A stretch of 64,000 bases of DNA, taken from assembly GCA_965112635.1 (NCBI GenBank), contig OZ218778.1:1216001-1280000 (forward strand), given 5' to 3'. Positions 42,682 through 61,265 of the stretch are shown here, piece by piece. Numbering within the stretch: position 1 is the first letter of the stretch; the number at the start of each line of letters is the position of its first letter. Source of the stretch: an uncultured bacterium. GTDB taxonomy: Bacteria > Oederibacteriota > Oederibacteriia > Oederibacteriales > Oederibacteriaceae. The notes beneath the pieces are model-generated. The model did no database searches, had not been told where the DNA came from, and saw only the letters and a list, made by a program, of their open reading frames with translations. The position numbers and the translations under genes are program-made.

Positions 42682-42690
42682 TGATATAAT
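42682..42690 (+). promoter_or_regulatory. Extended -10 promoter TGnTATAAT
   Basis: TGATATAAT just upstream of GGGAG RBS and ATG 42708. Confidence 0.5.
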
Positions 42691-42707
42691 TGCCGCAGGG
42701 AGCTCTT

Positions 42708-44885: not shown

Positions 44886-44914
44886 TTGACAAGAGGGGTT
44901 TGAGGGGTTAGATT
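44886..44914 (+). promoter_or_regulatory. sigma70-type promoter of the his-trp operon
   Basis: TTGACA (44886-44891) - 17 nt - TAGATT (44909-44914). Confidence 0.8.
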
Positions 44915-44959
44915 ATTAACAATTCCGCACAAGGCGGGTCAAAAAAAGGAGAATTTTTC

Positions 44960-45031
44960 GTGGAAAACATCAAGTTAGCGGGCTGGCATTGGCATTCTGG
45001 TTCCACTAGGGGTGTGCCCGCTGCTTGGTAA
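44960..45031 (+). CDS. Attenuator leader peptide, 23 aa: MENIKLAGWHWHSGSTRGVPAAW
   Basis: AGGAG RBS at 44947-44951, GTG start, TGG CAT TGG CAT at 44984-44995, TAA at 45029-45031; too short for the ORF track. Confidence 0.85.
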   Translation: MENIKLAGWHWHSGSTRGVPAAW

Positions 45032-45085
45032 TCAGGTGCAGTAAATTCCAAAGGCCGTGGGTCACCACCCACGGCCTTTTTTGTT
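44976..45085 (+). promoter_or_regulatory. Ribosome-mediated transcription attenuator (1:2, 2:3, 3:4 helices)
   Basis: 1:2 AGCGGGC(44977-83)/GCCCGCT(45016-22); antiterminator GGTGTGCCCGCTGCTTGG(45011-28)/CCAAAGGCCGTGGGTCACC(45048-66); terminator 45050-45085. Confidence 0.82.
45050..45085 (+). terminator. Intrinsic terminator in the leader upstream of hisD
   Basis: AAAGGCCGTGGGT-cacc-ACCCACGGCCTTT followed by TTTGTT. Confidence 0.92.
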
Positions 45086-45125
45086 ACTATATCCATCATC
45101 CATTTAGGCGAACAAGGGAGAACTA

Positions 45126-46493
45126 ATGAAAATATTCAAATGCGGCAACGAAAAACAAAAACAAAAAGTGTTCCAGTGGCTGGAGGCGATGAGCCAGAGC
45201 GACCCCAAGGTCGATGAGGTCGTCGCTAGCATCGGGGGGCTGGTCAAAAAGGACGGGGACCGCGCTTTATGCCAGCTGGCCATGCTTAGCCGGCCTGATG
45301 TTTCCAGGGCCGTGAGGCTGGGCGGCAGCAGGGCGTTGCTGCGGTATTACACCCGTCTCAAGATGCCCAGGTTCCCCCTCAAGGTCACGGACAAGGAAAT
45401 GAAGGGTTCCCTGGCCAAAGTTTCGCCTGGTGTTTTAAGGGCCGTGGTCCAGTCCCGGGACAATATCAGACGGTTCCATGAGCAGGCGGACAAAAGGACC
45501 TGGCTCAAGACCACGAACAAGCGGGGACAGCGGATCACTTTGGGCCAGATATACCGTCCTGTGGAATGCGCTGGGCTGTATGTGCCCGGAGGCACGGCTC
45601 CCCTGGTTTCTACTGTGCTGATGACCGCGGTCCCGGCCAGGGTTGCCGGGGTCAAGCGCTGTTATATTTGCACGCCGGCCTCTAGCCAGGGTGTGGTGCA
45701 TCCGATTATCCTGGCCGCAGCCAGGCTGTGCGGGGTTAACGAGGTTTACCGCACTGGCGGCAGCCAAGCTGTTTTTGCCATGGCCTACGGCACCCAGACC
45801 ATCCCGAGAGCGGACAAGATAGCCGGTCCGGGCAATGCCTATGTGGCGGCGGCCCTGAGGCAGGTGCAAGGATTCGCTGGAGTGGAGAGCATCCCGGGCC
45901 CCTCCGAAGTCATGATCGTGGCCGATGAGAGCGCCGACCCCATGGCCTTGGCCATGGACCTGTGCTCCCAGGCCGAACACGACGAGCGGGCTGTGGCCGT
46001 GCTCGTGGCGCTGTCGCCGCGCGTGACCCGGCAGGTCGAGGCGGCTTTGATAAAAGCCCTGCCTATGCTGGAGCGCCAGAGCGTCATCGAAAAGGTGCTG
46101 CAGAACAGGGCGGCCATTATTGAGGTCAAAAATAAAGCCATGGCTTTGGCCCTGGCCAACCGCATGGCTGCGGAGCATCTGGAGGTCAATTTAAAAGGCA
46201 ACGAGTCGGAAAAGTTCAGCCGGCAGGTCCAGAACGCCGGGGCAATTTTGGTGGGGCCGTTCACGCCGGCCGCGGTGAGCGATTATTTCGCCGGACCGAG
46301 CCACGTGCTGCCTACCGGCGGGACAGCCCGTTTTTCCTCAGGCGTTACCGTGGACACTTTTTTAAAGAAGACCAGCTGGGTTTCCTATAACGAAAAGGCC
46401 TTAAAAGAGGCCAGATTAGCGGTGCAGGCCCTGGCTTTGGTCGAAGGCTTGACGGCGCACAGCCAGAGCCTGGCCGTGCGCACAAAAAGATAG
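45126..46493 (+). CDS. hisD: Histidinol dehydrogenase
   Basis: GLYVPGG, KIAGPGNAYV, GPSE, QAEHD, EHL, DYFAGPSHVLPT. Confidence 0.95.
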   Translation: MKIFKCGNEKQKQKVFQWLEAMSQSDPKVDEVVASIGGLVKKDGDRALCQLAMLSRPDVSRAVRLGGSRALLRYYTRLKMPRFPLKVTDKEMKGSLAKVSPGVLRAVVQSRDNIRRFHEQADKRTWLKTTNKRGQRITLGQIYRPVECAGLYVPGGTAPLVSTVLMTAVPARVAGVKRCYICTPASSQGVVHPIILAAARLCGVNEVYRTGGSQAVFAMAYGTQTIPRADKIAGPGNAYVAAALRQVQGFAGVESIPGPSEVMIVADESADPMALAMDLCSQAEHDERAVAVLVALSPRVTRQVEAALIKALPMLERQSVIEKVLQNRAAIIEVKNKAMALALANRMAAEHLEVNLKGNESEKFSRQVQNAGAILVGPFTPAAVSDYFAGPSHVLPTGGTARFSSGVTVDTFLKKTSWVSYNEKALKEARLAVQALALVEGLTAHSQSLAVRTKR

Positions 46494-46494
46494 G

Positions 46495-47596
46495 ATGAGG
46501 AAGGTCATTATGAACAGCGACAAGGGAAACGATTTATATCTGAGAGGGGAGATCAGGACGCTCAAGCCCTATAGCGTCGAGGAAGAATCTTTCCGGGTCA
46601 AATTGGACGCCAACGAGAACCCGTTCGACCTGCCCGCGGAGGTCAAGGAAGAAGTCCTCAGCGCGGCCCGGTCCAAGCCGTTCAACCGTTATCCGGACGC
46701 CAACGCGACCGTGCTGCGGGAAATGGTGGCCCAGGACCTGAACCTTAAAAAGGAGAATATCCTGTTCGGAAACGGGTCGGACGAGCTCATCCAGCTTATC
46801 CTGGCCACTTATGGGGCGCCGGGGCGGCGGGCGGTCTTTCCCGCTCCTACCTTTGAGATGTACAACGTCCTGACGCAGGTCAGCGGCATGGTGCCGGTGA
46901 GCGTAGCCCTGGACAAGAGGAATTTCGATTTGGACGAAAAGGAGTTCCTTAAAGAGCTGGCCAAGGAAAAGACCGAGCTGTGTTTTTTGGTCTATCCCAA
47001 CAGCCCGACCGGCAACTGCTTCAGCACAGCCAAGGTCGAGGAGGTCCTCAAAGCCAGCCGGGGTCTGGTGGTCATTGACGAGGCCTATTTTCAATTCTGC
47101 GGCAAGACCTTTGTGCCGAGGCTCAAGACCTATCCCAACCTCATTGTGCTGAGGACATTTTCCAAGGCGTTCGGCCTGGCGGGTTTGAGGGCGGGTTATT
47201 GTGTGGGGACGCCGGAAGTGCTGGCCAACCTATGGAAGGTCAAGCTGCCTTACAACCTCAACGCCCTGACCCAGCTGGCCGTGCAGGGGGCCATGCGTTA
47301 TAAGAAAAAAGTTCTGGAAAAAGTCGAGGAAATATTGCGGGAAAGGGATAAACTTGCGGACAGGCTGGCCCATGTCCCCGGGGTCAAACCATACCCGAGC
47401 GAGACCAATTTCATCTTTTTCGAGGTGGAAAAGGGCGCTTCCCGGGTCTTTGAACAGTTGAAAAAAGAAGGGATACTCATCCGGAGTTTCCAGGACCAGC
47501 CCGGGCTGGATGGTTTTATGAGGGTCACAGGTGGGGTCTAGCGAAGAGAACGAGGAGTTTTTGCAGATTCTAGAGAAGATAGTTAGAAATTTGTAG
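46495..47596 (+). CDS. hisC: Histidinol-phosphate aminotransferase (C-terminus frameshifted at about 47530)
   Basis: KLDANENPF, NRYPD, GNGSDE, PNSPTG, IDEAY, RTFSKAFGLAGLR; ORF stops at 47541 but removing one G restores RVTVGSSEENEEFLQIL ending at 47596. Confidence 0.9.
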
Positions 47597-47638
47597 GAGC
47601 CGCTCCTGGCCAAGCCGGGAGGGGACGAGGAGGTTACG

Positions 47639-48238
47639 ATGAAAGCCAGGATCGCCAAGGTCGTGCGCAAGACCAAGGAGACCGACATCAAGGCAGTCCT
47701 AAACCTGGACGGCAAGGGTGAGATCACGGTCAGGACCGGGATCCCCTTTTTCGACCACATGCTTACCTCCCTGGCCAAACACGCTGGTTTTGACCTCCAA
47801 CTCTCGGCCAAAGGGGACACTCAGGTAGACGACCACCACACGGTCGAGGACGTGGGACTGGTCCTGGGGCAGGCTTTGGCCAAAGCCCTGGGGGATAAAA
47901 AGGGCATCCAGCGGTTCGGTTCGGCCATCGTGCCCATGGACGAGGCCAGGGCATACGCGGCCTTGGACATCAGCGGCCGTCCCTGCCTCAGTTACAGCAT
48001 AAGCATCGTCAAGGAGATCAAGGAGTTTGACCTGGAACTGCTGGAGGATTTTTTTGAGGCTTTTACCGTGGAAGGCCGGCTCACCCTGCACCTGTGGACC
48101 GACAGCCAGGCCGGGAAAAAGGTGAACAGCCACCACCAGGCCGAGGCCATGTTCAAGGCCAGCGCCTGCGCTCTCAGGCAGGCGGTCAGCCTCAACCCTC
48201 GGGTCAAGGGCGTGCCCTCGACAAAGGGAAAGCTATAA
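47639..48238 (+). CDS. hisB: Imidazoleglycerol-phosphate dehydratase (monofunctional)
   Basis: RKTKETDI, FFDHML, DDHHTVED, PMDE, NSHHQAEAMFK, PSTKG. Confidence 0.96.
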   Translation: MKARIAKVVRKTKETDIKAVLNLDGKGEITVRTGIPFFDHMLTSLAKHAGFDLQLSAKGDTQVDDHHTVEDVGLVLGQALAKALGDKKGIQRFGSAIVPMDEARAYAALDISGRPCLSYSISIVKEIKEFDLELLEDFFEAFTVEGRLTLHLWTDSQAGKKVNSHHQAEAMFKASACALRQAVSLNPRVKGVPSTKGKL

Positions 48239-48269
48239 AAAACTAAGGAAAAGGTAAGGATATTTTAAG

Positions 48270-48938
48270 ATGATCGCGGTTGTGGATTACGGGATGGGCA
48301 ATTTGAGGAGCGTCCAAAAAGCCCTGGAGAGCGTGGGCGGGGAGGCTGTGGTCACGGACAAACCAGAGGTGATCACTGAGGCCAGGGCCATTGTTCTGCC
48401 CGGGGTAGGGGCTTTTGGCGCTGCCGTGGAAAAACTCCAGGCGCAGAACCTGATCGGATTGCTCAAAAGAGAGATCAGCAGCGGCAAACCCTTTTTGGGC
48501 ATTTGCCTGGGGCTCCAGCTGCTCTTCCAGGAGAGCGAGGAGTCGCCGGGCGTTGCCGGACTGGGGCTTTTGGAGGGCAAGGTCAAGGCCCTGAAGGTCA
48601 GCCTCAAGATCCCGCATATGGGCTGGAACCAGGTCCACCTCAACCCCAAGAACAAGAGCAGGCTGTTCCAGGGGATCCACGACAAGACTTTTTTTTATTT
48701 TGACCATACCTTCGCGGTTGTGCCCAAGGATCCGCGGGACATCGCCACCACGACCGATTATGAGGTCGATTTTGTGAGCGCGGTCAAAAGGGACAACATC
48801 TACGGGGTGCAGTTCCATCCTGAGAAAAGCCAGGCCGCGGGTCTGCGCCTGCTCAGGAATTTCGTCATGTTCAGCAAGGTGCCGTTGGGCGCTTTTAAAC
48901 TGATCAAAGAGATCACAAGAAGGACCAGGAAAAGATAG
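48270..48938 (+). CDS. hisH: Imidazole glycerol phosphate synthase glutaminase subunit
   Basis: DYGMGNLRSV, LPGVGAF, GICLG, PHMGWN, QFHPEKS. Confidence 0.96.
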   Translation: MIAVVDYGMGNLRSVQKALESVGGEAVVTDKPEVITEARAIVLPGVGAFGAAVEKLQAQNLIGLLKREISSGKPFLGICLGLQLLFQESEESPGVAGLGLLEGKVKALKVSLKIPHMGWNQVHLNPKNKSRLFQGIHDKTFFYFDHTFAVVPKDPRDIATTTDYEVDFVSAVKRDNIYGVQFHPEKSQAAGLRLLRNFVMFSKVPLGAFKLIKEITRRTRKR

Positions 48939-48962
48939 CCTGGCCGGAGGAGGAGCAAAGCT

Positions 48963-49724
48963 GTGTTCGTTATTCCAGCGATAGACCTGAGGGACGGGTG
49001 CTGTGTCAGGCTGGTGCAGGGCGACCCGCACCGCCAGACCGTATATTCCAAGGAGCCGGTATCCATGGCCAAGCTATGGTACCTCAAGGGCGCCAAGTGG
49101 ATACACGTCGTGGACCTCAACGGCGCCCTGACCGGCAAGCCCATCCATATCGGCATCGTCAAACGCATCTGCCGGGAGGTCAAGGCCAAGGTCGAGTTCG
49201 GCGGCGGGGTGCGGAGCATGGACGTGATCGCGGAGCTCGTCGAGGCGGGAGTGCAGCGGGTCATCCTGGGCACTTCGGCCGTGGACCAGGCCAGCCTGGT
49301 GCAAAAGGCGGTGGCGCGGTTCGGCGGTAAGATCGCCGTGGCCCTGGACGTGAGAAGGGGCAAGCTGGCCACGCAGGGCTGGAAAACCATAGTGTCCCGG
49401 GAGCCTCTGGAGATGGCCCGGGAGATGCAAAAGCTGGGTGTGGGGACCTTTGTATTCACCGAGGTGAGCCGGGACGGCATGCTCAAAGGCCCTGCTTTTA
49501 AGGCCACTTCTGACTTTGTCCGGCAGGCCGGGGCCAAGGTCATCGCCTCGGGCGGCATCACCAAGCTGTCCAACCTGGTCAAGCTCAAAAAGCTGGAGCC
49601 CTTTGGGCTTATAGGCGCCATCGTGGGCAAGGCGCTTTATAGCGGGGACATGGACCTCAAGCAGGCCCTGGCCCTGGGCGAAGCCAAGGCCAGATCGAAG
49701 AAAAGACCGAAAAAAGGAGCGTAA
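48963..49724 (+). CDS. hisA: ProFAR isomerase
   Basis: IPAIDL..G.CVRL.QG, HVVDLNGA, GGGVRS, RDGML.GP, IASGGI, IVGKALY. Confidence 0.95.
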   Translation: MFVIPAIDLRDGCCVRLVQGDPHRQTVYSKEPVSMAKLWYLKGAKWIHVVDLNGALTGKPIHIGIVKRICREVKAKVEFGGGVRSMDVIAELVEAGVQRVILGTSAVDQASLVQKAVARFGGKIAVALDVRRGKLATQGWKTIVSREPLEMAREMQKLGVGTFVFTEVSRDGMLKGPAFKATSDFVRQAGAKVIASGGITKLSNLVKLKKLEPFGLIGAIVGKALYSGDMDLKQALALGEAKARSKKRPKKGA

Positions 49725-49730
49725 CCGAGC

Positions 49731-50504
49731 ATGTTAGCCAGGCGCATCATCCCTTGTCTGGATGTCACGGAAGGCAGGGTGGTCAAAGGGGTCAAGTTCG
49801 TGGACCTTAAAGATGCCGGAGACCCGGTGGAGATCGCGTCCTATTACGACAAGCAGGGCGCGGACGAGCTGGTGTTCCTGGACATCACGGCGTCGCACGA
49901 AAAGCGAAAGATCATCCTGACCCTGGTCAACAAAACCGCGGAGAGGGTCTTCATCCCCCTGACCGTGGGCGGGGGCATCAGCGAGATCGCGGACATCCGG
50001 GACCTATTGAACGCCGGGGCGGACAAGGTCTCGCTCAACACCGCGGCCGTGGAAAACCCCAAGCTTATCCGGAGCGCTTCGGACAAGTTCGGGGCGCAGT
50101 GCATCGTGACGGCCATCGACGCCATCCGCCGGCCTCCCAAAAAAAGGGGGGAGGTTTTTTGGGAGGTCTACACCCACGGAGGCAGGAAACCCACAGGCCT
50201 CAACGCCCTGGACTGGGCGCAAAAAGTGGTGGACCTGGGTTCGGGCGAACTTTTGGTGACCAGCATGGACCGGGACGGCACCCAGGTGGGCTATGACCTG
50301 GAACTTTTAAAAGCTATCTCCGAAAGGGTCCATGTGCCGGTCATCGCCTCGGGCGGGGCAGGGCATCTCAAACACCTTTACGAGGCCCTGGCCATCGGCA
50401 AAGCCGACGCGGTCCTGGCGGCATCCATATTCCATTTTGGGACCTATACCGTCAAACAGGTCAAGCGGTACTTGAAAGACCGGGACGTCCCGGTCAGATT
50501 TTGA
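49731..50504 (+). CDS. hisF: Imidazole glycerol phosphate synthase cyclase subunit
   Basis: [43 protein letters not shown]. Confidence 0.97.
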
Positions 50505-50522
50505 TCATAAGGAAGAAGAACG

Positions 50523-50933
50523 ATGAACCCACTCATTAAAGAAGTCAAATTCAATAAGGACGGGCTGGTGCCCGCCATCGTGCAGGACACGCGGGACAAA
50601 CAGGTCCTGATGTGCGCCTTCATGAACCAGAAGGCTTTGGCCCTTACCCTGAAGACCGGGCTCATGCACTACTACAGCCGTTCGAGGAACAAACTGTGGC
50701 TCAAAGGCGAGGAGTCCGGGCACGTGCAAAGGGTCAAAAAGATCTTTGTGGACTGCGACGCGGACTGTCTGCTTTTCTATGTCCAGCAGACCAAGGCCGC
50801 GTGCCATACCGGTTTTCGCACCTGTTTTTATAGGGTGGCCGAGGCCAGGAAGGGTAGGTGGAAAGTGATTGGAAAACCCTTATTCGACCCTAAAAAAGTG
50901 TATTCCATTCCTAAGGGAGGGCGCGCCCGATGA
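50523..50933 (+). CDS. hisI: Phosphoribosyl-AMP cyclohydrolase (no HisE domain)
   Basis: [37 protein letters not shown]. Confidence 0.95.
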
Positions 50934-52411
50934 TCAAGCCCGGGTGGCAGGAATTCCAGCAAAAGGCTAAAAAAGGCAACCTCATCCCGGTTTACCGGGA
51001 GATCCTGGCTGACCTGGAAACCCCTGTTTCCGCCTTTTTAAAGATAGAGGACGGCGAAAACTCCTTTTTACTGGAGAGCGTGGAGGGGTCCGAGCTCGTG
51101 GGCCGGTATTCCATTTTGGGGACCAACCCCTTGTTCGTGGTGTCCTGCAAGGACCAGAAAGTCACCTTCCAATACCACGGCAAGGTCCAGGAGGGCAGCG
51201 CGTCCACGGATCCCCTGGAACTGATCAAAAAGCTTTTGGCCGTTTACAAGCCGGTGCTGGACGAAGACCTGCCTCCTTTTATCGGCGGGGCCGTCGGGTA
51301 CCTGGCCTATGACGCGGTCCGCTATTTCGAGAAACTGCCCTATACCAAGGCCAAGGACGACCGGGAACTGCCGGACTGCCTCTTTATGGTCGCGGACACG
51401 GTGCTGATCTTCGACCACTTTAAGCACATGGTCCTGGCGGTCGCCAATGCCTACATCACGGACAAGGAAGGGCCCCGGGAAGCCTACGACAAGGCCTGCG
51501 AGAAGATAGACTTTCTGGTGGAGCAGCTCAAAAAACCCCTGAAGATCGCCAAGGCCAAGCCGGCCAAGTCCAAGGCCATCTCCTTGAGCCCGGATTTTGA
51601 GAAGCAAGGGTTCATCGAAGCCGTGGAAAAGATCAAAGAGCACATCCGGGCGGGCGACATCATCCAGGCCGTCCTGTCCCAGCGGCTCCAGGGCAAGATG
51701 ATGGTGGACCCTTTCACCGTGTACCGGGTCCTGAGGACCATCAACCCGTCCCCCTACATGTTCTACCTGCAGTTCGGGGACCTGCAGCTGGTGGGGTCCT
51801 CGCCGGAGATGCTGGTGAGGGTCAAGGGAACGCACGTGGAAACCCGGCCCATTGCCGGGACCCGGCCGCGCGGGAGGGACAGCGAAGAGGACGCCAACCT
51901 GATGAACGAACTCATCACGGATTCCAAGGAAAGGGCCGAGCACCTGATGCTGGTGGACCTGAGCCGCAACGACCTGGGACGGGTCTGCGACTACGGCACG
52001 GTGGAGGTCAGGGACCTCATGCGCGTGGAAAAGTTCTCCCATGTCATGCACCTGGTCACGGAAGTGCACGGGACTTTAAAGCAGGGGCACGACGTGTATG
52101 ACTGCCTGAGGTCCTGCTTCCCGGCCGGCACGGTCTCCGGGGCGCCCAAGATACGGGCCATGGAGATCATCGAAGAGCTGGAACCTTTTTATCGCGGGCC
52201 TTACGCGGGGGCCGTGGGTTATTTCGGGTTCCAGGGCAACATGGACACCTGCATCGCCCTGAGGACCCTGGTCATCCACAAGGAAGTGGCTTATGTCCAG
52301 GCCGGGGCGGGCATTGTCGCGGATTCCCATCCTGAACTGGAATACGAAGAAAGCATGAATAAATCCAAAGCCCTGGTCAAAGCCATTTCCCTGGCTTCCG
52401 AGGGACTATAG
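50930..52411 (+). CDS. trpE: Anthranilate synthase component I
   Basis: [50 protein letters not shown]; ATGA overlap with hisI stop. Confidence 0.95.
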
Positions 52412-52423
52412 GTAAGAGGAGGG

Positions 52424-55360
52424 TTGATGATGAACAGAAAGGCCGTTATTATAACGCTTTTACTGCTGGCAACCGGGGCTGTCCTGGCGCCCCGCTGGCT
52501 GGCAGCGGAAGATCTGAAGATCGCCATTACGAAGGATAATTCCATTTGCATGGATTCCGGCGAACGGAAATTGAATATGGGAGGTTCTTCCCGTATCAAA
52601 TTAAAAGCGGATGAGAACGCCATCCTGCTGGCCGTGGATACCGCAGCCATGCAGAACAAGCTTTTGACCAAGGCCGTGCTGCATATCCGGGGCACGGACA
52701 CCAATATGATGGTACGCAAAGTGGACTTTTCCACTCTGGCCTGCTCTCCCTGGAGCGAGGGGGTAGGCAACGGAGAGGCGGCCAACCAGGGGGATTCCAC
52801 TTTTTTTACGCCGGAGTTCGGCAGCGACCGTTTATGGGGCGGGCCGGATTCTGATTTTTACGACGTCATCGGCGGCCGCTGCGGGACCATCTGGATGCAG
52901 GCCTATGTCAAGCCCGGGCCGGACATGTGGTACGAGATGGAGATCGACCCGCGCCTTTTGGAAGCCTGCGCGGCCGGATTATCCGGCGGCATCCTGATGC
53001 ATGACGGCAACGGACAGGTCAAAGAAATGAATGGGGCGGTAATGCCCGGCAGCAATTACGGTAATAATTTATTTTATTCCAAAGAGCAGGCCGGCTCAGA
53101 GCCTTATTTTACGGCCGTAGCCCAGCCCGCGGCCAAGGCGGCTGGTGACACGCTGGCCGTGGAGGTCAAACCCTGGCAGGCCGGGGCTGATTTTGAAAAG
53201 GGCGGTGTGGAGATCAGCTGGCCAGGTCCCTTAAGCGACAAAGAGTACAGGTCTATGCTGGGAGCCCGCGTCTATCTCACAAGCGGGAGCAATCCCGAGG
53301 TCCCGGCGCCGCTGTGGACCATGCCGCCTTTGCCCAAGCCGGGCGAGACGGCCCGGTTGCTTTTGTCCGGCCAGGAACCGGGCGCTTCCCTGACGGCGCG
53401 GGTGGAAGTCGTGACCCGGGGCGGCCAGGTGCTGCACCAAGGCAGCGCTTCAGGACAGGTCTCGGACAAGTTCCCTGAGCCGCAGGCCTTGAGCCTGCAG
53501 GCCGTGGCCGGGAAAGCCGGCGACCCGCCGTCCAACTCCAAGGCCAAAGTCTGGGTGGTGCCGGACGGGGTCAAGGTCAATCCTCTGACCGGCAATGTCC
53601 AGGAGGAGGACGGGGTGACTTACGAAGGCGACCCGGCGGGCACTTACCGCCAGGCCAATGCCGTGTGGAGCGGGGGAGGCGCCACCATAAACCTGGCCGG
53701 GCTCAAAGGCGAGTGGGTCGGGTTCCAGATCGTGTGCGAGAACGCGGGTACCGACCCGGTGTCTTACCATATTAAACCGGGCAGCCTGAGCGGGGCCAGC
53801 GGCGTCCTGATCCAGGATGCCAATGTGGGGTTGTCCAGGATGTGGTATATCAAGAACGGGGACAAGGACCAGAGCTGGTACGAGGACCCCATGGTCCCCC
53901 TAAAAAATGACGAGGCTTTTGGCGTTCCCTGGGATAAGAACGCGGTGCCTGGCCAGAAAAACCAGGCTATTTATACGGAATTCTTCATTCCCAAGAGCGC
54001 GGCGCCAGGGGCGTATACCGGCGTCATTCAGGTATTTGCCGGGGACGAAAGCCCGGTGGCTTTGAATGTAAACCTGACGGTGGGTAACGGGGCCATTCCG
54101 GATGAGGCGCATCTGATCCTGTCCATGAACAATTACCAATCTCCGGGGGGAAATTTCGAGGAAAAGGATTTTCTCCAGGGCGAGAGGGCTTTTTACCGCA
54201 TGGCCCACGACCATCGTACGGATATATGCATCGTGCCTTACAGCCACATTGGCAATATCCAGAGGGATTATCAGCTCCCCTTGGCCGGCACGGGCAGTTC
54301 CATGCGTGTCGCTGACTGGTCAGCCTGGGACAAGCGTTTTGGGCCCCTGTTCGACGGGACCGTTTTCAAGGGGTCGCCCCGGGAAAACGCACCCTTGAGC
54401 CATTTTAACCTGATGTTTTCCGAGAACTATCCCACGACCATGGCGCAGGGTTATAAATACAACAACCTGAGCTGGGAAAACTGCTGGAAAGAGAACAATA
54501 CTCCCTGGGAAGATTTCAGCGACACCTTTAAAGCCCAGTGGGTGGCCGTGGCCAAGGACTTTATCAAGCATGTGAAGGAAAAAGGATGGCAGACCTCTTT
54601 TCAGGTATTGCTGAACGACAAGAGCAACTATAAGGCCGCGGACCCTACGACCAAACAGCCGGGAAAAGGCGTGAGTTTTTGGAGGCTGGACGAGCCGGCT
54701 TATACCGATGACTTTCTGACTGTTCAGCTCATCGGCAGACTGTTGAAACAGGCCCAGGAGGGCGACCGCAACCATGTCCTATTCCGCTGCGATGTTTCCT
54801 ATCCGGAACGGGCGTGGACCATGCTGAGCCGGGTTTTGGACCTGGACGTGTGCAGCAACCTCAGCTATCTCCGTTTCCTGCAGGACGACCGCGAGCGTTA
54901 CGGCGTCGGGATCTGGAATTACAGCGGGGCGCCGTCCTGCCAGGAAAGCAACCTGGGCATCAGCGCCATGGCCATGGACCTTTTTGGCCGGAGCGTGGAC
55001 GGGTATGTGCCCTGGAAGGCCATTGGGTCGGATTTCAACTGGAACAAGTTCGACGACTTTACCAGCGTCATTTATACCGGAGGGCGCTGGGGCATCATTG
55101 GGCCCTGCGCTTCCCTGCGGCTTAAGGCTTACCGCCGCGCGGAGCAGGACGTGGAGTACCTGTGGCTTCTGGCCAACAAGAGGGGGCTCCTGAACAACGA
55201 CCCGAACCACAAACAGGTGGCCAGGCTTTTGACCAGTTCCCTGAACCTGCAAAAGACCACGAGCGCCCTGGACAACAACGGGGGCGTGGTCGAGTCGTTT
55301 AAAAGCATAAAGCCCGACCAGCTGGAGAGCCTCAGGCGGGCCATAGCAGGGGCATTGTGA
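52424..55360 (+). CDS. Large secreted protein with C-terminal DUF4091/GH123-like glycoside hydrolase region
   Basis: Signal peptide; GEWVGFQIV, GAYTG.I Ig-like domain, LDEP motif, SLRLKAYRRAEQDVEYL tail. Confidence 0.6.
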   Translation: MMMNRKAVIITLLLLATGAVLAPRWLAAEDLKIAITKDNSICMDSGERKLNMGGSSRIKLKADENAILLAVDTAAMQNKLLTKAVLHIRGTDTNMMVRKVDFSTLACSPWSEGVGNGEAANQGDSTFFTPEFGSDRLWGGPDSDFYDVIGGRCGTIWMQAYVKPGPDMWYEMEIDPRLLEACAAGLSGGILMHDGNGQVKEMNGAVMPGSNYGNNLFYSKEQAGSEPYFTAVAQPAAKAAGDTLAVEVKPWQAGADFEKGGVEISWPGPLSDKEYRSMLGARVYLTSGSNPEVPAPLWTMPPLPKPGETARLLLSGQEPGASLTARVEVVTRGGQVLHQGSASGQVSDKFPEPQALSLQAVAGKAGDPPSNSKAKVWVVPDGVKVNPLTGNVQEEDGVTYEGDPAGTYRQANAVWSGGGATINLAGLKGEWVGFQIVCENAGTDPVSYHIKPGSLSGASGVLIQDANVGLSRMWYIKNGDKDQSWYEDPMVPLKNDEAFGVPWDKNAVPGQKNQAIYTEFFIPKSAAPGAYTGVIQVFAGDESPVALNVNLTVGNGAIPDEAHLILSMNNYQSPGGNFEEKDFLQGERAFYRMAHDHRTDICIVPYSHIGNIQRDYQLPLAGTGSSMRVADWSAWDKRFGPLFDGTVFKGSPRENAPLSHFNLMFSENYPTTMAQGYKYNNLSWENCWKENNTPWEDFSDTFKAQWVAVAKDFIKHVKEKGWQTSFQVLLNDKSNYKAADPTTKQPGKGVSFWRLDEPAYTDDFLTVQLIGRLLKQAQEGDRNHVLFRCDVSYPERAWTMLSRVLDLDVCSNLSYLRFLQDDRERYGVGIWNYSGAPSCQESNLGISAMAMDLFGRSVDGYVPWKAIGSDFNWNKFDDFTSVIYTGGRWGIIGPCASLRLKAYRRAEQDVEYLWLLANKRGLLNNDPNHKQVARLLTSSLNLQKTTSALDNNGGVVESFKSIKPDQLESLRRAIAGAL

Positions 55361-55399
55361 GGATTTGACCGTCAAACTGGAGAGGAGTTCAGCGTCGCT

Positions 55400-56751
55400 T
55401 TGAAGGCCAGGTGTTTCCTAAGCTTGTTTTTGCTTGTTGTTACAGCGCTTTTGTGGCTGCAGGGATGTTCAACCCTTTCCGACCGGGTGTCCTCAGATGA
55501 CGAGTACACCCGATTGCCGGCCCAGAGGGAGTTGCGCGACCTCAAACCCGACCAGGCCAACCAGGTCGTGGAGGGGCTCGTCGCGAGGATGGACCAAAAA
55601 TCAGACCCCCTCAGCCGGGAATGGGCGGCCCAGTCCCTGGGGCTGGTGGGGCCGCAGGCCAAGGCCGCTGTGCCTAGCCTGATCCGGGCCCTGCAGGACG
55701 AGTACTACTATGTCCGGGAAAAGGCCGCGGAGGCTTTGGGCAAGATCAGGAGCGACCAAAAGGCCGTGCCGGCCCTCATCGCCGTTTTGCACGACGAGAA
55801 CGGTATTGTCCGGGACAAGGCCGAGGGTGCCCTGAACATGATCGGACCGCCGGACAAGGGGTCCATCGAGGACCTGGTCAAGCTGCTGACTGACCAGCCG
55901 GACCCCTTTATTCGGGCCAAGGCGGCCGAGTCGCTGGGGAGCATGGGGGAGGACGGACAGCCGGCCACCAAGACCCTGGCCGCGGCCCTGGGGGATAAAG
56001 ACCCCGGCGTGCGGGCCTACAGCGCGGAGGCTCTGGGCAGGATCGGCGAAGGCGCCGAAGAGGCCCTGCCCCAGGTGGTGCAGGCCCTCAAGGACGCCGA
56101 CGACCAGACCAGGAAGAACGCCAGGCTGGCCCTGTCCAGGGTGGTGCTCCGCTGCAACCTGATCCCCGGCATGGTCCCGCCGGAGCTGAGGCTGATGGAA
56201 AAGCGGCTCCAAGACATTTTCAACCGGCAGGTGGGATGGGCCAGCACCAACAAGCAGGTCAAGATCATCGCGGTCATGTGGAAGGGCATGGAGCCCGAAA
56301 TGGCCCAGAGAAAAGTTCCGAAGGTGATGATGGACAAGCTCGACACGGCCCTGCAGGACCTGGGGCAAAAGGCAGGGGCCAAGGACGACGACGGGATGGT
56401 GGGAGCCTTGCAAAGCTCCTGCGAGGCCCTGCTGGACCTGTATGAGCTGTACCAGCCCAGGATGCCCTGCGACTTTAACCGCCTGCTGGTGTACCAGGAG
56501 ATGATCACCCTGGCCCGCTGGGACAGGATCGGGCCCCTGCTGATGCAGGACCGGTGGACCTGGAACAGGGCCAAGCCGTGGCTCATCCAGTGGGGGGAGA
56601 GGGTGAGGCCGGGGAATACGAGAAGTGCCTCAACCGGCAGGAACGGGCCGCAGCGGACAAGGATATCGTCCTTTTGAACAAGGAGTCCCAGAACGGCTGG
56701 GGCCTGGCCAACAAGGTCTATAAATTTATCGCGGAGAGGAAGAAGTCATGA
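55400..56751 (+). CDS. HEAT-repeat lipoprotein (probable frameshift near G-run 56592-56597)
   Basis: Lipobox LQGC; repeats VR.KAAEALG.IG; ORF ends 56677 but the -1 frame continues to TGA 56751, overlapping the trpG ATG. Confidence 0.7.
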
Positions 56752-57317
56752 TCCTGATGATCGACAATTACGATTCATTCACCTACAACCTGGTGCAATA
56801 CCTGGGCGAGCTCAAAGAGGACCTCATCGTCCGGCGTAATGACAAGATAGAGCTGCAGGAGATAGAGAACATCAGGCCGGACCGCATCGTCATCTCGCCG
56901 GGGCCGGGAACCCCCAGCCAGGCAGGCATTTCCTGCGATGTCATAAGGCGTTTCGGGCCGGAGATACCCATTTTGGGGGTCTGCCTGGGACACCAGGCTA
57001 TCGGGCAGGTCTTCGGCGGAGAGGTGGTCAGGGCCGAGCGGCTGATGCACGGCAAGACCTCGCTGGTGCACCACGACGGCAAGAACCTGTTCCGCTACAT
57101 CCGCAACCCGTTCGAGGCCATGCGTTACCACTCCCTGATCGTGAAAAAAGATACCCTGCCCTCGTTCCTGGAGGTCACCGCGTGGACCGACCAGGGTGAG
57201 ATCATGGGTCTCAGGCACAAAACCTTTCCGGTCGAGGGGGTGCAGTTCCATCCGGAATCCATCATGACCAAAGTGGGCAAGGATATCCTGAAAAATTTTC
57301 TGATGCTGGAGCGTTGA
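56748..57317 (+). CDS. trpG: Anthranilate synthase component II (glutamine amidotransferase)
   Basis: IDNYDSFTYNL, SPGPG, GVCLGHQ, MHGKTS, RYHSL, QFHPES. Confidence 0.94.
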   Translation: MILMIDNYDSFTYNLVQYLGELKEDLIVRRNDKIELQEIENIRPDRIVISPGPGTPSQAGISCDVIRRFGPEIPILGVCLGHQAIGQVFGGEVVRAERLMHGKTSLVHHDGKNLFRYIRNPFEAMRYHSLIVKKDTLPSFLEVTAWTDQGEIMGLRHKTFPVEGVQFHPESIMTKVGKDILKNFLMLER

Positions 57318-57345
57318 ACCAGCCGAGCAAGATGAAGGAGGGATC

Positions 57346-58350
57346 GTGATCAAGGAAGCCATCCAAAAATTGATCGAGAAAAAGGACCTGACCGAGGCCG
57401 AGGCCTTGGCCGCCCTGGGCGAGATCATGGACGGCCAGGCGACGCCGGCGCAGATCGGGAGTTTCATCACGGCCCTCAGGATGAAAGGCGAGACCATTCC
57501 CGAGATCATCGGGTGCGTCAAGGCCATGCGGGCCAAGGCCACCCATATCCAGAGCGACGGCGCGGTCCTGGACACCTGCGGGACCGGCGGGGACCGGAAA
57601 GGGACCTTTAACATCTCCACGGCGGCGGCCTTTGTGGCGGCCGGGGCGGGCATCCGCGTGGCCAAGCACGGCAACCGGGCCGTATCCAGCGGATGCGGCA
57701 GCGCGGATGTGCTGGCGGCCCTGGGGGTCAACCTCGAGATGCCCCCGGACAAGGTGGAGCAGGCCCTGAGGGAGATCGGGATCGCTTTTTTGTTCGCGCC
57801 CATGCTGCACTCGGCCATGAAACACGCCATCGGTCCGCGCCGGGAGATCGGCATCCGGACGGTCTTTAACGTCCTGGGGCCCATGACCAACCCGGCCGAG
57901 GCCAGGTACCAGCTCATCGGGGTTTACGACCCCTCCCTGACCGAGGTCATTGCCAGCGTGCTGGGAGAACTGGGGAGCGAACGGGCCTGGGTGGTGCACG
58001 GCGAGGAACTTTTGGACGAGATCTCCATCTCCGGCCGGACCAGGGTCAGTGAGCTCAGGGACGGCAAGGTCAAGACCTTTACCATTGAGCCCAAGGACGC
58101 GGGATTGAAACCGGTACCTTTATCCCTGCTCCTGGGCGGGGACGCGACCCGCAACGCCCAGATTCTGGAGATGGTTTTAAGGGGTGAAAAAGGCCCTCAC
58201 CGCCAGGCGGTCCTCATTAATGCCGGAGCGGCCATTTATGTGACCCTGCCGGGAACCTTTCAGGATGGGGTGGAAATGGCCAGAAAATCCATTGATTCCG
58301 GGGCGGCTATGGCCAAGCTGGAAGCCCTGCGAAAATTTGCCAAGAAATGA
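57346..58350 (+). CDS. trpD: Anthranilate phosphoribosyltransferase
   Basis: DTCGTGGD, NISTA, AKHGNR..SS.CGSAD, FNVLGP, DEIS. Confidence 0.96.
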   Translation: MIKEAIQKLIEKKDLTEAEALAALGEIMDGQATPAQIGSFITALRMKGETIPEIIGCVKAMRAKATHIQSDGAVLDTCGTGGDRKGTFNISTAAAFVAAGAGIRVAKHGNRAVSSGCGSADVLAALGVNLEMPPDKVEQALREIGIAFLFAPMLHSAMKHAIGPRREIGIRTVFNVLGPMTNPAEARYQLIGVYDPSLTEVIASVLGELGSERAWVVHGEELLDEISISGRTRVSELRDGKVKTFTIEPKDAGLKPVPLSLLLGGDATRNAQILEMVLRGEKGPHRQAVLINAGAAIYVTLPGTFQDGVEMARKSIDSGAAMAKLEALRKFAKK

Positions 58351-58356
58351 CGAGCC

Positions 58357-59766
58357 ATGTTCCTGGAAAAGATAGCCAAACAAAAGAAAAAAGAGGTCAG
58401 GGCCGCTAAAAAACAAAAGCCCCTGGCCCAGCTCCAGGAGGAGGTGCGGCAGGCTCCTCCGGTGCGGCCCTTTTTGGCCGGCCTCAAGAACAGCCCCTAT
58501 TTCCCCCTTATCGCCGAGATAAAAAAAGCTTCGCCTTCCAAAGGCCCCTTAAACCCCAATCTGGACGTCGTCAACCTGGCTAAAACCTACGAGCAGGGAG
58601 GGGCTGCGGCCCTTTCCGTCCTGACCGAGGAGAAATTCTTCGGGGGCAGCCTGGCTGACCTGGCCAACTGCCGGCAGGCGGTCAGCCTGCCTGTCCTGCG
58701 CAAGGACTTTATGGTCGACGCCTACCAGATCTGGGAGTCCCGGGCCGGCGGAGCCGACGCGGTCCTGCTCATCGCCGACCTTTTGGCCCAGGAAGAGCTG
58801 GAGAAGTTCTACAGCCTCAGCCATGAGTTGGGCATGGAGGCTCTGGTGGAGGTCCATGGCAAACTGGACCTCAAAAAGGCCCTGGCCCTCAACCCCGGCC
58901 TGCTGGGCATCAACAACCGCGACCTGAAAACTTTCAAGACCAAGCTAAAAAATTCTTTTCAGCTCATCCCCGAGATCCCGGGGGAGATCTTCACCATCAG
59001 CGAGAGCGGTATCTTTACCTACGACGACCTGATGGCCTTGAAGTCCCGCGGCCTGAAGGGAGCGCTCGTCGGCGAAAGTCTGGTGACCAGCCCTGACCCG
59101 GCCCTAAAACTGGACCAGCTGCTGGGCAAGAGGCCGTCGCCGCTGGCCGACACTTTCCTCATCAAGATCTGCGGCATCACCAGCCTCAAGGACGCCCGAT
59201 TGGCGGTGGAGGCCGGAGCCAACGCCCTGGGGTTCAATTTTTACCCCAGGAGCCCGCGCTACATCACGCCGGAGGCGGCCAGCTCCATCGTCAAGGGCCT
59301 GCCGGGGCACGTGCGCAAAGTCGGGGTGTTCGTGGACGCGCCCGCGCCCGAGGTGCGCTATATCGCCGGCCTTTGCCAGCTGGACACCCTGCAGTTCCAC
59401 GGGCAGGAGAGCGAGACCTATTGCGGGAGCTTTGAGCAGGAAGTCATCAAGGCGTTCAGGGTGAGGGGAGAGAAAGACATCAAGCAGGCTTATACCTATA
59501 CCGCGGACGCGTTCCTGCTGGATAACTTCAGCGAGGAGCTGCCCGGCGGGACGGGCAGGGTCTTTAATTGGACCCTGCTCAAGCAGGCCAGGCGGCCTTT
59601 TATCCTGGCCGGAGGGCTGAACCCGGAGAACATCCGGGAGGCCATCCAGACCTGCCGTCCCAACGGCGTGGACGCGTGCAGCGGGGTCGAGGAAGCACCA
59701 GGCAGGAAAAGCCCAAAAAAATTAGTAAAATTCGTGCAACAGGCCAGGAAAGCACTGAATCATTAA
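58357..59766 (+). CDS. trpCF: Bifunctional indole-3-glycerol-phosphate synthase / phosphoribosylanthranilate isomerase
   Basis: TrpC: IAEIKKASPSKG, LRKDF, GINNRDL, SESGI; TrpF: IKICGIT, LQFHG, GGTG..F.W, LAGGL.PEN, DACSGVE. Confidence 0.95.
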   Translation: MFLEKIAKQKKKEVRAAKKQKPLAQLQEEVRQAPPVRPFLAGLKNSPYFPLIAEIKKASPSKGPLNPNLDVVNLAKTYEQGGAAALSVLTEEKFFGGSLADLANCRQAVSLPVLRKDFMVDAYQIWESRAGGADAVLLIADLLAQEELEKFYSLSHELGMEALVEVHGKLDLKKALALNPGLLGINNRDLKTFKTKLKNSFQLIPEIPGEIFTISESGIFTYDDLMALKSRGLKGALVGESLVTSPDPALKLDQLLGKRPSPLADTFLIKICGITSLKDARLAVEAGANALGFNFYPRSPRYITPEAASSIVKGLPGHVRKVGVFVDAPAPEVRYIAGLCQLDTLQFHGQESETYCGSFEQEVIKAFRVRGEKDIKQAYTYTADAFLLDNFSEELPGGTGRVFNWTLLKQARRPFILAGGLNPENIREAIQTCRPNGVDACSGVEEAPGRKSPKKLVKFVQQARKALNH

Positions 59767-59816
59767 AAAAGTTGTCGTTCATGCAATAATTAAACTTAAC
59801 AGGGAGGGTAACAGTC

Positions 59817-60035
59817 ATGGCTGATTTGAAACGGTTCCGGGTGGGGATCGAATGGAAGATGTACGGGTATTGTTACTCGGAGGCCAAGGACGAGAAGGAG
59901 GCGCTTTTGCTGGTGCAGGGTATGCTCAAAGACCCTAAAACCAAGTATCCAGATAATGCTAAATTTGTACCGAACAGCGCCATCATAGACCATCTTTCCA
60001 TCAAGGAAGTCAACAAGGGTGAAGCAAGCCGTTGA
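59817..60035 (+). CDS. Small hypothetical protein (72 aa)
   Basis: RBS GGGAGGG then ATG; fills the trpCF-trpB gap; preceded by AT-rich spacer. Confidence 0.65.
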
Positions 60036-60051
60036 GGATGAAAGAGGAAGA

Positions 60052-61263
60052 ATGAGCAGCTTAAAACAAAGACTATTGCCTGACAAAAAAGGGCATTTTG
60101 GGCTTTATGGCGGCAAGTTCGTGCCGGAAACCCTGATGCCGGCCCTGTTGGAACTGGAAAGGGCCTACGAGGCAGCCCAAAAAGACCTCTCCTTTAAAAA
60201 GGAGCTCGGGTTTTACCTCAAACATTACGTGGGCCGGCCGTCGCCCCTTTACCTGGCCAGGCATCTCTCTGTAGCATTGGGCGGGGCGAAGATCTACCTC
60301 AAGCGCGAAGATTTGAACCACACTGGCGCGCACAAGATAAACAACACCCTGGGCCAGGTCCTGCTGGCCCGGAGGATGGGCAAAAAACGGGTCATTGCCG
60401 AGACCGGAGCGGGCCAGCACGGGGTGGCCACGGCCACGGTGGCGGCTCTCTTTGGTATGGAATGCGAGGTCTTTATGGGCGAGGAAGACTGCCAGAGGCA
60501 GGCCCTCAATGTTTACCGCATGCAGCTTTTGGGCGCCAAGGTCACTCCGGTGATCTCGGGCTCCAAAACCCTCAAAGACGCGATGAATGAGACCATCCGC
60601 GACTGGGTGACCAATGTCCGCACCACCTTTTATATCATCGGCTCCACGGCCGGGCCGCATCCCTATCCGATGATGGTCAGGGATTTTCAAAAGGTCATCG
60701 GCGAGGAGTCCAGAAAACAGATCATAGAACTCGAGCGCAGGATGCCGGACCATCTGGTGGCCTGCGTGGGCGGGGGCAGTAATGCCATGGGATTGTTTTA
60801 TCCTTTTCTTGGAACCAAAGCCAGGATGACCGGGGTGGAGGCGGCCGGGCTGGGCCTGTTGAGCGGGAAACACGCGGCCACCATCAGCAAAGGCCGGCCG
60901 GGCATCCTGCACGGCAGCCTGAGCTACCTTTTGCAGGACAAGGACGGCCAGGTGCAGATCGCGCACTCGGTCTCGGCAGGCCTGGATTACCCAGGTGTGG
61001 GTCCGGAGCACAGCTACCTCCATGACATCGGCCGGGTCCAATACACTTCGGCCACAGACAAGGAAGCGGTGGAGGCTTTTCATCTGCTCAACCATACCGA
61101 AGGCATCATGCCGGCTCTGGAAAGCGCTCATGCCTTGGCTTATGTCAAGAAGCTGGCGCCCAGGCTGGCAAAGGACAGGGTCATCATCGTCAACCTGTCC
61201 GGCAGGGGCGACAAGGATATAGAGACGGTCAAGAAATACGGATCCATGGGGAGACATTCATAG
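60052..61263 (+). CDS. trpB: Tryptophan synthase beta chain
   Basis: [50 protein letters not shown]; ATG 60052 after GAGG. Confidence 0.97.
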
Positions 61264-61265
61264 CC

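What the first reader, a model, noticed from the sequence alone, without database searches (positions are those of the whole stretch)
44886..45125. Dual His/Trp-sensing leader-peptide attenuator (W-H-W-H) in front of a hybrid his-trp operon
Seen: TTGACA-N17-TAGATT promoter; AGGAG RBS; a 23-codon ORF (44960-45031, MENIKLAGWHWHSGSTRGVPAAW) with alternating TGG-CAT-TGG-CAT; a 13-bp terminator with U tract (45050-45085); an alternative helix pairing 45011-45028 with 45048-45066 that sequesters the terminator 5' arm; and a 1:2 helix (44977-83 with 45016-22). Established: this is the geometry of E. coli trpL/hisL attenuators, and known multivalent leaders (thrL Thr/Ile, ilvL Leu/Ile/Val) sense amino acids of linked pathways. 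Inference: a ribosome stalled at codons 9-12 masks segment 1 and frees segment 2 (read-through), whereas a ribosome reaching the stop masks segment 2 (termination). One leader would thus act as an OR gate for His or Trp starvation, matching exactly the two pathways encoded downstream. I know of no described His+Trp leader, but could not search the literature. A third Trp as the last codon lies within segment 2 and may tune Trp versus His sensitivity.
Basis: partly seen in the sequence, partly recalled or inferred. Interest (0 to 1): 0.93.

Follow-up and report, generated by a model that had tools for sequence, protein, structure and literature searches.

The report
His/Trp leader attenuator, his–trp operon
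A short upstream reading frame with alternating tryptophan and histidine codons, a terminator and a competing hairpin sits in front of an operon that makes both amino acids; it looks like a classic ribosome-sensing switch adapted to two amino acids, but it is found in this one genome only and is untested.

Summary
These are a TTGACA-N17-TAGATT promoter, an AGGAG Shine-Dalgarno, a 23-codon GTG ORF (44960-45031) with W9-H10-W11-H12, a 13-bp terminator with a T-run, and 1:2 and 2:3 alternative helices.

Constrained folding reproduces the three-helix logic. An 18-bp antiterminator is the best fold only when a ribosome is parked with its A site on codons 8-13, and W-H-W-H fills four of those six codons. 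WHWH occurs once in the genome's 5.75 million six-frame codon positions. This terminator ranks 1 of 141 strong terminators for antiterminator pairing.

Downstream lies hisDCBHAFI-trpE...trpGD(CF)BA, with the hisI stop overlapping the trpE start. This his–trp cluster is phylum-wide: trpE follows hisD in 58 of 82 genomes.

The leader is not conserved. None of 84 relatives has it, none is close (HisD 46% identity or less), and no RNA data exist. No Rfam family, T-box, TRAP or TrpR was found.

Verdict: a probable genuine leader-peptide attenuator, a new variant of a known kind. Dual His/Trp sensing is plausible but not shown.

The parts
44886..44914 (+). Sigma-70-type promoter TTGACA-N17-TAGATT; inferred transcription start near 44921
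   Evidence: 10 of 12 matches. A similar TTGACA promoter-like site precedes hisG (sequence).
44947..44951 (+). Shine-Dalgarno AGGAG, 8 nt before the GTG start of the leader ORF
   Evidence: Sequence. Neighbouring genes also carry GGAG/GGGAGG sites before their starts.
44960..45031 (+). Leader ORF of 23 codons plus stop: MENIKLAGWHWHSGSTRGVPAAW*
   Evidence: It is the only regulatory-codon-type small ORF among 52 terminators that sit before a long ORF.
44984..44995 (+). Candidate regulatory codons W9-H10-W11-H12 (TGG CAT TGG CAT)
   Evidence: Unique in the genome. They fill 4 of the 6 codons (8-13) at which a stalled ribosome yields the antiterminator.
44969..45029 (+). 1:2 hairpin (anti-antiterminator and possible pause hairpin), -27.1 kcal/mol
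45009..45069 (+). 2:3 antiterminator: 45009-45028 pairs with 45048-45069 (18 bp, -22.3 kcal/mol) and sequesters the 5' arm of the terminator
   Evidence: Rank 1 of 141 terminators.
45050..45085 (+). 3:4 intrinsic terminator: 13-bp stem, loop of 4, T-run; -24.0 kcal/mol
45126..50933 (+). hisD, hisC, hisB, hisH, hisA, hisF, hisI
   Evidence: NCBIfam hits over the curated cut-offs.
50930..62093 (+). trpE (start overlaps the hisI stop, ATGA); a 976-aa secreted protein with no Pfam match reaching its cut-off; a HEAT-repeat protein; trpG; trpD; trpC-trpF fusion; a 72-aa ORF; trpB; trpA
   Evidence: No strong intrinsic terminator between these genes.

Best explanation
This is a ribosome-mediated (leader-peptide) transcription attenuator of the trpL/hisL type, controlling a hybrid his–trp operon.

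Proposed mechanism. Transcription starts near 44921, and a ribosome translates the 23-codon leader.
- If charged tRNA-Trp or tRNA-His is scarce, the ribosome stalls on W9/H10/W11/H12 and covers segment 1. Segment 2 (45009-28) then pairs with segment 3 (45048-69) as soon as segment 3 is made. The terminator cannot form, and RNA polymerase reads into hisD...trpA.
- If both amino acids are plentiful, the ribosome runs on to the stop codon at the 3' edge of segment 2 and covers it. The 13-bp terminator forms and transcription ends near 45085.
- With no translation at all, 1:2 and 3:4 both form (super-attenuation).

Shown here: the sequence features, the thermodynamic feasibility and mutual exclusivity of the helices, the register between codons and helices, and the statistical rarity.

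Inferred: that the ORF is translated, that stalling happens at both codon types, and that read-through changes.
For: 1. All parts are in the canonical order and spacing.
2. Helix energies are close to one another: 1:2 is -27.1, 2:3 is -22.3 and 3:4 is -24.0 kcal/mol. Passages of PMC1183508 describe similar stabilities for II:III and III:IV in E. coli trp.
3. Codon-by-codon masking was run on the transcript cut at 45069. The 18-bp antiterminator is the minimum-free-energy fold only for A-site codons 8-13 (7-13 with a longer footprint). W-H-W-H occupies codons 9-12.
4. WHWH is unique among 5.75 million six-frame positions.
5. Antiterminator potential ranks 1 of 141 terminators.
6. The operon encodes exactly the His and Trp enzymes, and hisI and trpE are translationally coupled.
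7. With the queries used, no other known regulator type was found in the genome: no T-box, no TRAP, no TrpR and no Rfam family in the window.
8. The second TGGCAT copy (44991-95) is unpaired in the 1:2 hairpin, so structure does not explain its presence.
9. CAT is the minority His codon in the operon genes (23 CAT against 46 CAC), and there is a single tRNA-His(GTG) and a single tRNA-Trp gene.
10. The stop codon lies at the far 3' end of region II. PMC1183508 names this placement as one way to get low basal read-through.
Against: - It is a singleton. None of 84 phylum genomes shows a W/H leader or a comparable terminator upstream of hisD. Three of those genomes had under 60 nt of upstream sequence available. 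No covariation test is possible.
- The one public DNA run that covers the leader is identical to the window.
- No other leader-peptide attenuator was seen in this genome: 0 of the 51 other terminators that sit before a long ORF, and none in the crude scan.
- There are only two codons per amino acid, so sensitivity to His in particular may be low.
- In shuffles of the ORF region, 64 of 200 give some antiterminator window.
- The leader ORF starts with GTG.
- There is no expression or 3'-end data.
- Precedent for caution: passages of PMC1262725 report that mutating predicted regulatory codons of the S. coelicolor ilvB leader had no effect on regulation.
Confidence: 0.68

Rival explanations
1. A genuine attenuator that senses one amino acid only, most likely Trp. 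The His codons would be passengers of a 6-nt TGGCAT duplication that doubled the Trp codon.
For: TGGCATTGGCAT is an exact tandem repeat of 6 nt. Two Trp codons suffice in E. coli trpL (PMC1183508 passage), and double or triple UGG repeats occur in actinobacterial trp leaders (PMC1262725 passage).
Against: Seven his genes come first in the operon, and no other His-responsive element was found. Both His codons fall inside the six-codon control window. CAT is the less-used His codon. A stall at any codon in the window has the same structural result in the model.
Confidence: 0.14
2. No sensing at all. The hairpin is a plain terminator, for instance for the upstream 719-aa gene that ends at 44849, and the small ORF and its W/H codons are chance.
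For: No strong terminator lies between the upstream gene's stop at 44849 and position 45050. The element is not conserved. Shuffles often give some alternative pairing.
Against: A 10-of-12 promoter lies upstream of the hairpin, and no promoter-like site lies in the 40 nt between the terminator and hisD, so the his–trp operon would have no promoter of its own. About 0.001 mixed W/H tetrads are expected in the leader. Antiterminator rank is 1 of 141. The codons sit in register with the control window.
Confidence: 0.12
3. The terminator/antiterminator switch is real but is set by something other than a translating ribosome, such as an unknown RNA-binding protein, a small RNA or a ligand.
For: The alternative helices are strong in themselves. 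Nothing shows that the ORF is translated.
Against: No Rfam family matches, and no TRAP or T-box was found. This reading does not explain a Shine-Dalgarno-preceded ORF whose W/H codons fall exactly in the control window.
Confidence: 0.06

Closest known systems
E. coli trpL attenuator (Rfam Trp_leader)
   Same: Short leader ORF with two Trp codons in segment 1; 1:2, 2:3 and 3:4 helices of similar stability; an intrinsic terminator before the first structural gene. About 85 nt separate the regulatory codons from the terminator end here; the E. coli layout comes from PMC1183508 passages.
   Different: No sequence or structure match to any Rfam leader family at E up to 10. The Trp codons alternate with His codons. 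The stop codon lies at the 3' end of segment 2 rather than between segments 1 and 2. No TrpR partner was found. The organism belongs to an unrelated, small phylum of 99 species genomes.
Salmonella/E. coli hisL attenuator (Rfam His_leader)
   Same: A leader peptide with His codons controlling his genes by termination and antitermination.
   Different: Two His codons instead of seven in a row (the number seven is recalled). hisG is not in the operon. No extra hairpin of the kind described in PMC1183508. No Rfam match.
Multivalent leaders thrL (Thr/Ile) and ilvL / ilvBN leaders (Leu/Val/Ile)
   Same: One leader peptide mixes codons for more than one amino acid, so starvation for any of them relieves termination.
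   Different: Those leaders mix amino acids of one metabolic family. Here the two amino acids come from separate pathways that are joined only by sharing an operon. I recall that both pathways also consume PRPP and glutamine.
   Same: Small ORFs with His runs upstream of his genes, for example MRLFTAHHHHHASCPQAS in L015.
   Different: They contain His only, usually five in a row, in a different phylum. I did not fold their structures.

Membership tests
Ribosome-mediated leader-peptide transcription attenuator (trpL/hisL type) | Short ORF with a ribosome-binding site inside the 5' leader, downstream of the promoter | tested here: met
   AGGAG, then 8 nt, then GTG; a 23-codon ORF starting 46 nt after the -10 element.
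Ribosome-mediated leader-peptide transcription attenuator (trpL/hisL type) | Cluster of codons for the amino acid(s) made by the operon | tested here: met
   W9-H10-W11-H12. The operon encodes His and Trp enzymes. The tetrad is unique in the genome.
Ribosome-mediated leader-peptide transcription attenuator (trpL/hisL type) | Intrinsic terminator between the leader ORF and the first structural gene | tested here: met
   13-bp stem plus T-run at 45050-45085, 40 nt before hisD.
Ribosome-mediated leader-peptide transcription attenuator (trpL/hisL type) | Mutually exclusive antiterminator (2:3) and anti-antiterminator (1:2) helices | tested here: met
   Rank 1 of 141 terminators. However, 64 of 200 shuffles give some antiterminator window.
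Ribosome-mediated leader-peptide transcription attenuator (trpL/hisL type) | Register: a stall at the regulatory codons frees segment 2, and a ribosome at the stop codon masks it | tested here: met
   The antiterminator is the minimum-free-energy fold only for A-site codons 8-13, and not for codons 14-24 or the stop. This is in silico only.
Ribosome-mediated leader-peptide transcription attenuator (trpL/hisL type) | Conservation of the ORF, codons and helices (covariation) in relatives | tested here: not met
   Absent in 84 of 84 phylum genomes examined upstream of hisD. The nearest HisD is 46% identical, and metagenome and genome scans gave at most 47%. The relatives are too distant for this to count strongly against.
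Ribosome-mediated leader-peptide transcription attenuator (trpL/hisL type) | Read-through responds to supply of the cognate amino acid and to mutation of the leader codons | not testable with these tools
   No RNA run holds the stretch. This needs experiments.
Rfam His_leader / Trp_leader and other curated leader families | Match to the covariance model | tested here: not met
   No leader family among the 7 chance-level hits at E up to 10. No gathering-level hits in the whole window.
T-box riboswitch | Match to RF00230 | tested here: not met
   No hit at the locus or in the genome. The control genomes gave hits.
TRAP-mediated trp attenuation | Presence of the TRAP protein (PF02081) | tested here: not met
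   No match in the genome; the B. subtilis control gave a hit.

The most novel reading that the evidence does not exclude
A single leader peptide acts as a true two-input OR gate for amino acids of two unrelated pathways (His and Trp). It would have been invented in one lineage on top of an ancestral, phylum-wide his–trp super-operon that its relatives run from a plain promoter. That would make it a natural case of a regulatory leader evolving its codon content to match a hybrid operon.
Probability: 0.45. Interest if true: 0.65.

Novelty: new variant of a known kind. Interest (0 to 1): 0.55.

Why it matters
Leader-peptide attenuation is a textbook mechanism. Its known multivalent forms (recalled: thrL, ilvL) combine amino acids of a single metabolic family.

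A leader with interleaved Trp and His codons, in front of an operon that fuses both pathways, would show two things. First, the codon content of a leader tracks operon content even across pathways. Second, such a switch can arise in a single lineage, since its relatives keep the same his–trp cluster without any leader.

It also gives a compact, testable design: four codons and three helices in about 170 nt, usable as a two-input amino-acid sensor.

None of six full-text searches turned up a His+Trp leader or this his–trp operon. Subscription-journal papers, such as the comparative-genomics surveys of attenuators that I recall, are not in the searched library, so a prior description cannot be excluded.

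Tried and rejected
Searches for relatives that carry the leader
- The leader DNA against 41 genomes (G000 and 40 relatives) gave one hit besides G000's own (G036, L002). It is merely a similar terminator after an unrelated 435-aa ORF.
- HisD-based scans of genome contigs (53 loci) and metagenome contigs (80 loci kept of 105) gave at most 47% identity and no mixed W/H leader.
- Two apparent 'HHVWVW' small ORFs (L033, L120) lie out of frame inside a 435-aa gene and were rejected.
- A W-rich ORF in L157 lies inside hisD and was rejected.
- 21 phylum loci held too little of hisD for tblastn and dropped out. They were rescanned by orientation.
- Candidate upstream elements in L196, L193 and L195 turned out to be RNase P RNA.

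Public sequencing runs
- No RNA holder is listed.
- One DNA run (X1) covers the leader and is identical. X2 and X3 do not cover it. There is therefore no natural variation to test pairing.

Other leader-type attenuators in this genome
- None was convincing.
- Leu-, Val- and Phe-rich small ORFs were out-of-frame pieces of genes or lay in a repeat array.

Folding
- Equilibrium folding of the full leader always keeps the terminator, whatever is masked. This is expected for a kinetic switch, so I used transcripts cut at 45066/45069.

Other readings
- I compared TGGCATTGGCAT by eye with the sigma-54 consensus as I recall it. The GG-N10-GC spacing does not fit.

Tools
- Supplementary files of papers were not consulted.

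Full report
WHAT IS THERE

- A sigma-70-type promoter, TTGACA-N17-TAGATT, at 44886-44914. It matches 10 of 12 positions and is the only such site near the leader.
- AGGAG at 44947-44951, 8 nt before a GTG at 44960.
- An ORF of 23 codons plus stop (44960-45031) reading MENIKLAGWHWHSGSTRGVPAAW, with TGG-CAT-TGG-CAT at 44984-44995.
- A 13-bp, 8-G-C hairpin at 45050-45079 running into a T-run that ends at 45085. It is the strongest of the 44 terminator-like sites found between 44500 and 64000.
- hisD starting at 45126.

Region 44920-45095 folds to -64 kcal/mol (z = -3.38; 0 of 200 dinucleotide shuffles fold as well).

SURROUNDINGS

Downstream genes (NCBIfam; Pfam) run in this order:
- hisD, hisC, hisB, hisH, hisA, hisF, hisI;
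- trpE;
- a 976-aa protein with a signal-peptide-like N-terminus and no Pfam domain reaching its cut-off;
- a 425-aa HEAT-repeat protein;
- trpG, trpD, a trpC-trpF fusion;
- a 72-aa ORF;
- trpB and trpA.

All are on the + strand with short gaps. The hisI stop overlaps the trpE start (ATGA). No strong intrinsic terminator lies between the genes.

hisG is separate, 22 kb upstream at 23144-24012. It is the long form with the HisG_C domain and has its own TTGACA promoter-like site and no leader.

The gene upstream of the leader (42690-44849) is a 719-aa PQQ/BamB-like repeat protein.

DOES THE SWITCH WORK ON PAPER?

The unconstrained fold shows a 1:2 hairpin at 44969-45029 (-27.1 kcal/mol) and the terminator (-24.0 kcal/mol).

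With the full leader present, the terminator survives any ribosome mask. This is expected, because attenuators decide kinetically. I therefore cut the transcript at 45066 or 45069, where segment 3 has been made and segment 4 has not, and masked a 28-nt footprint codon by codon.
- The 18-bp antiterminator 45009-45028 x 45048-45069 (-22.3 kcal/mol) covers 10 nt of the terminator's 5' arm. It is the best fold only when the A site is on codons 8-13 (G-W-H-W-H-S). With a 31-nt footprint the range is codons 7-13.
- With the A site on codons 1-7, codons 14-23 or the stop, no antiterminator forms.

So W-H-W-H fills four of the six positions from which a stalled ribosome would cause read-through.

The three helices have similar stabilities. 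Passages of PMC1183508 describe the same for E. coli trp.

The stop codon sits at the 3' edge of segment 2. The same paper names this placement as one of two ways to get low basal read-through.

The last-codon Trp (W23) lies in segment 2. A ribosome pausing there blocks segment 2, so in this model it favours termination.

IS IT MORE THAN CHANCE?

- In the six-frame translation of the whole 2,876,006-bp genome (5,752,008 codon positions), WHWH occurs once, here. TGGCAYTGGCAY also occurs once.
- Mixed W/H tetrads total 27 genome-wide, so about 0.001 are expected in a roughly 205-nt leader.
- Among 141 strong terminators in the genome, this one ranks first for duplex energy between its 5' arm and the 67 nt upstream (-21.4 against a median of -10.9 kcal/mol).
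- A weaker control points the other way. 64 of 200 mononucleotide shuffles of the ORF region also give at least one codon with arm sequestration, and 26 of 200 give six or more.

The pairing alone is therefore not rare. The combination with the codons and their register is.

The second TGGCAT copy is unpaired in the 1:2 hairpin, so structure does not explain it.

CAT is the minority His codon in the operon genes (23 against 46 CAC). The genome has one tRNA-His(GTG) gene and one tRNA-Trp gene.

KNOWN ALTERNATIVES

- No Rfam family matches the locus even at E up to 10. The seven hits are chance-level and none is a leader family.
- No family reaches its gathering score anywhere in the window.
- The genome gave no T-box, no TRAP and no TrpR. 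Control genomes gave hits in each search.

RELATIVES

The genome stands alone in its family. All 98 other species genomes available share only its phylum. Their best HisD identity is 46%. The genome and metagenome collections gave at most 47%.

I examined hisD upstream regions in 84 phylum genomes. Three of these had under 60 nt of upstream sequence available. None has a small ORF with clustered W/H codons followed by a terminator.
- hisD usually follows the preceding gene closely. By my reading of its C-terminal residues, that gene is often murA; no family search was run on it.
- In one family I read by eye a conserved extended -10-like promoter directly before hisD.

The his–trp cluster itself, by contrast, is ancestral.
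- In 13 of 20 loci fetched at length, hisI is followed directly by trpE or trpG. Six of the other seven are cut off before that point, and one lacks it.
- Across the phylum, trpE lies 3.2-8.6 kb downstream of hisD on the same strand in 58 of 82 genomes where both genes were found. In 23 the two genes are on different contigs. In one they are 34 kb apart.

The leader is thus a lineage-specific addition to an old hybrid operon. It appears where the upstream neighbour differs from that of the relatives.

One public DNA run covers the leader and is identical to the window. No RNA run is listed. No covariation or expression test was possible.

OTHER ATTENUATORS IN THIS GENOME

A scan of small ORFs before terminators, inspection of candidates, and a list of 52 terminators that sit before a long ORF gave no second leader of this kind.

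LITERATURE

Six full-text searches found no His+Trp leader and no description of this his–trp operon.

I read passages only of two papers.
- PMC1262725: actinobacterial trp leaders with two or three UGG codons, and the caution that mutating predicted ilvB leader codons in S. coelicolor had no effect.

The multivalent leaders thrL and ilvL, and the proteobacterial survey of attenuators, are recalled and were not read. Paper supplements were not consulted.

VERDICT

The most likely explanation (about 0.68) is a genuine ribosome-mediated attenuator controlling the his–trp operon. That it senses both amino acids is plausible (about 0.45 overall) but unproven.

Rival explanations:
- a Trp-only attenuator with passenger His codons (0.14);
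- a plain terminator with a chance ORF (0.12);
- a switch set by another factor (0.06).

It is a new variant of a known kind. It is neat and testable, but it is a singleton without comparative or experimental support.

Noticed in passing
window 45126-62093; loci L167-L186: The hybrid cluster hisD(C)BHAFI-trpE-trpG-trpD-trpC is conserved across the phylum. trpE lies 3.2-8.6 kb downstream of hisD on the same strand in 58 of 82 genomes where both genes were found; in 23 they are on different contigs and in 1 they are 34 kb apart.
   Followed up: yes
window 52430-56677: Two genes are inserted between trpE and trpG only in this genome. One is a 976-aa protein with a signal-peptide-like N-terminus; it has no Pfam hit reaching its cut-off, weak GH123 N-terminal-domain leads (E 0.002), and Atlas look-alikes that are hypothetical proteins (commonest phylum Planctomycetota). 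The other is a 425-aa HEAT-repeat protein. In relatives trpG follows trpE directly, and tblastn with both inserted proteins (E cut-off 1e-8) gave no hit in the 20 loci.
   Followed up: partly
window 59817-60035: A 72-aa ORF with a GGGAGGG ribosome-binding site fills the 250-nt gap between trpC-trpF and trpB. Its only Pfam hit is sub-threshold (DUF1801, E 0.03). trpB probably starts at ATG 60052 rather than at GTG 60019.
   Followed up: partly
window 23144-24012: hisG (long form, with the HisG_C domain) lies apart from the his–trp operon, followed by a gene for a ribosomal RNA adenine dimethylase (Pfam RrnaAD). It has its own TTGACA promoter-like site and no leader. No hisE was seen in the operon: hisI is 136 aa and matches the cyclohydrolase-only model.
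   Followed up: partly
L007, L015, L019, L022, L029, L050, L054, L096, L111 (about 1-1.5 kb upstream of hisD): Small ORFs with runs of five His codons, such as MRLFTAHHHHHASCPQAS, lie upstream of the his genes. Those loci whose record titles are shown are Bacteroidales-type, Porphyromonadaceae, Bacteroides or Rikenellaceae MAGs. They look like His-only leader peptides. Their structures were not folded.
   Followed up: no
L196 568-931 (-); L193 1-268; L195 2169-2401: In three phylum genomes the RNase P RNA gene lies close upstream of hisD. In L196 its terminator sits just before hisD.
   Followed up: partly
G000:C1 about 2488290-2488460 (outside the window): An array of repeated TTGTCATAA-like motifs followed by a strong terminator, with no long ORF downstream. 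Seen while scanning for leader ORFs.
   Followed up: no
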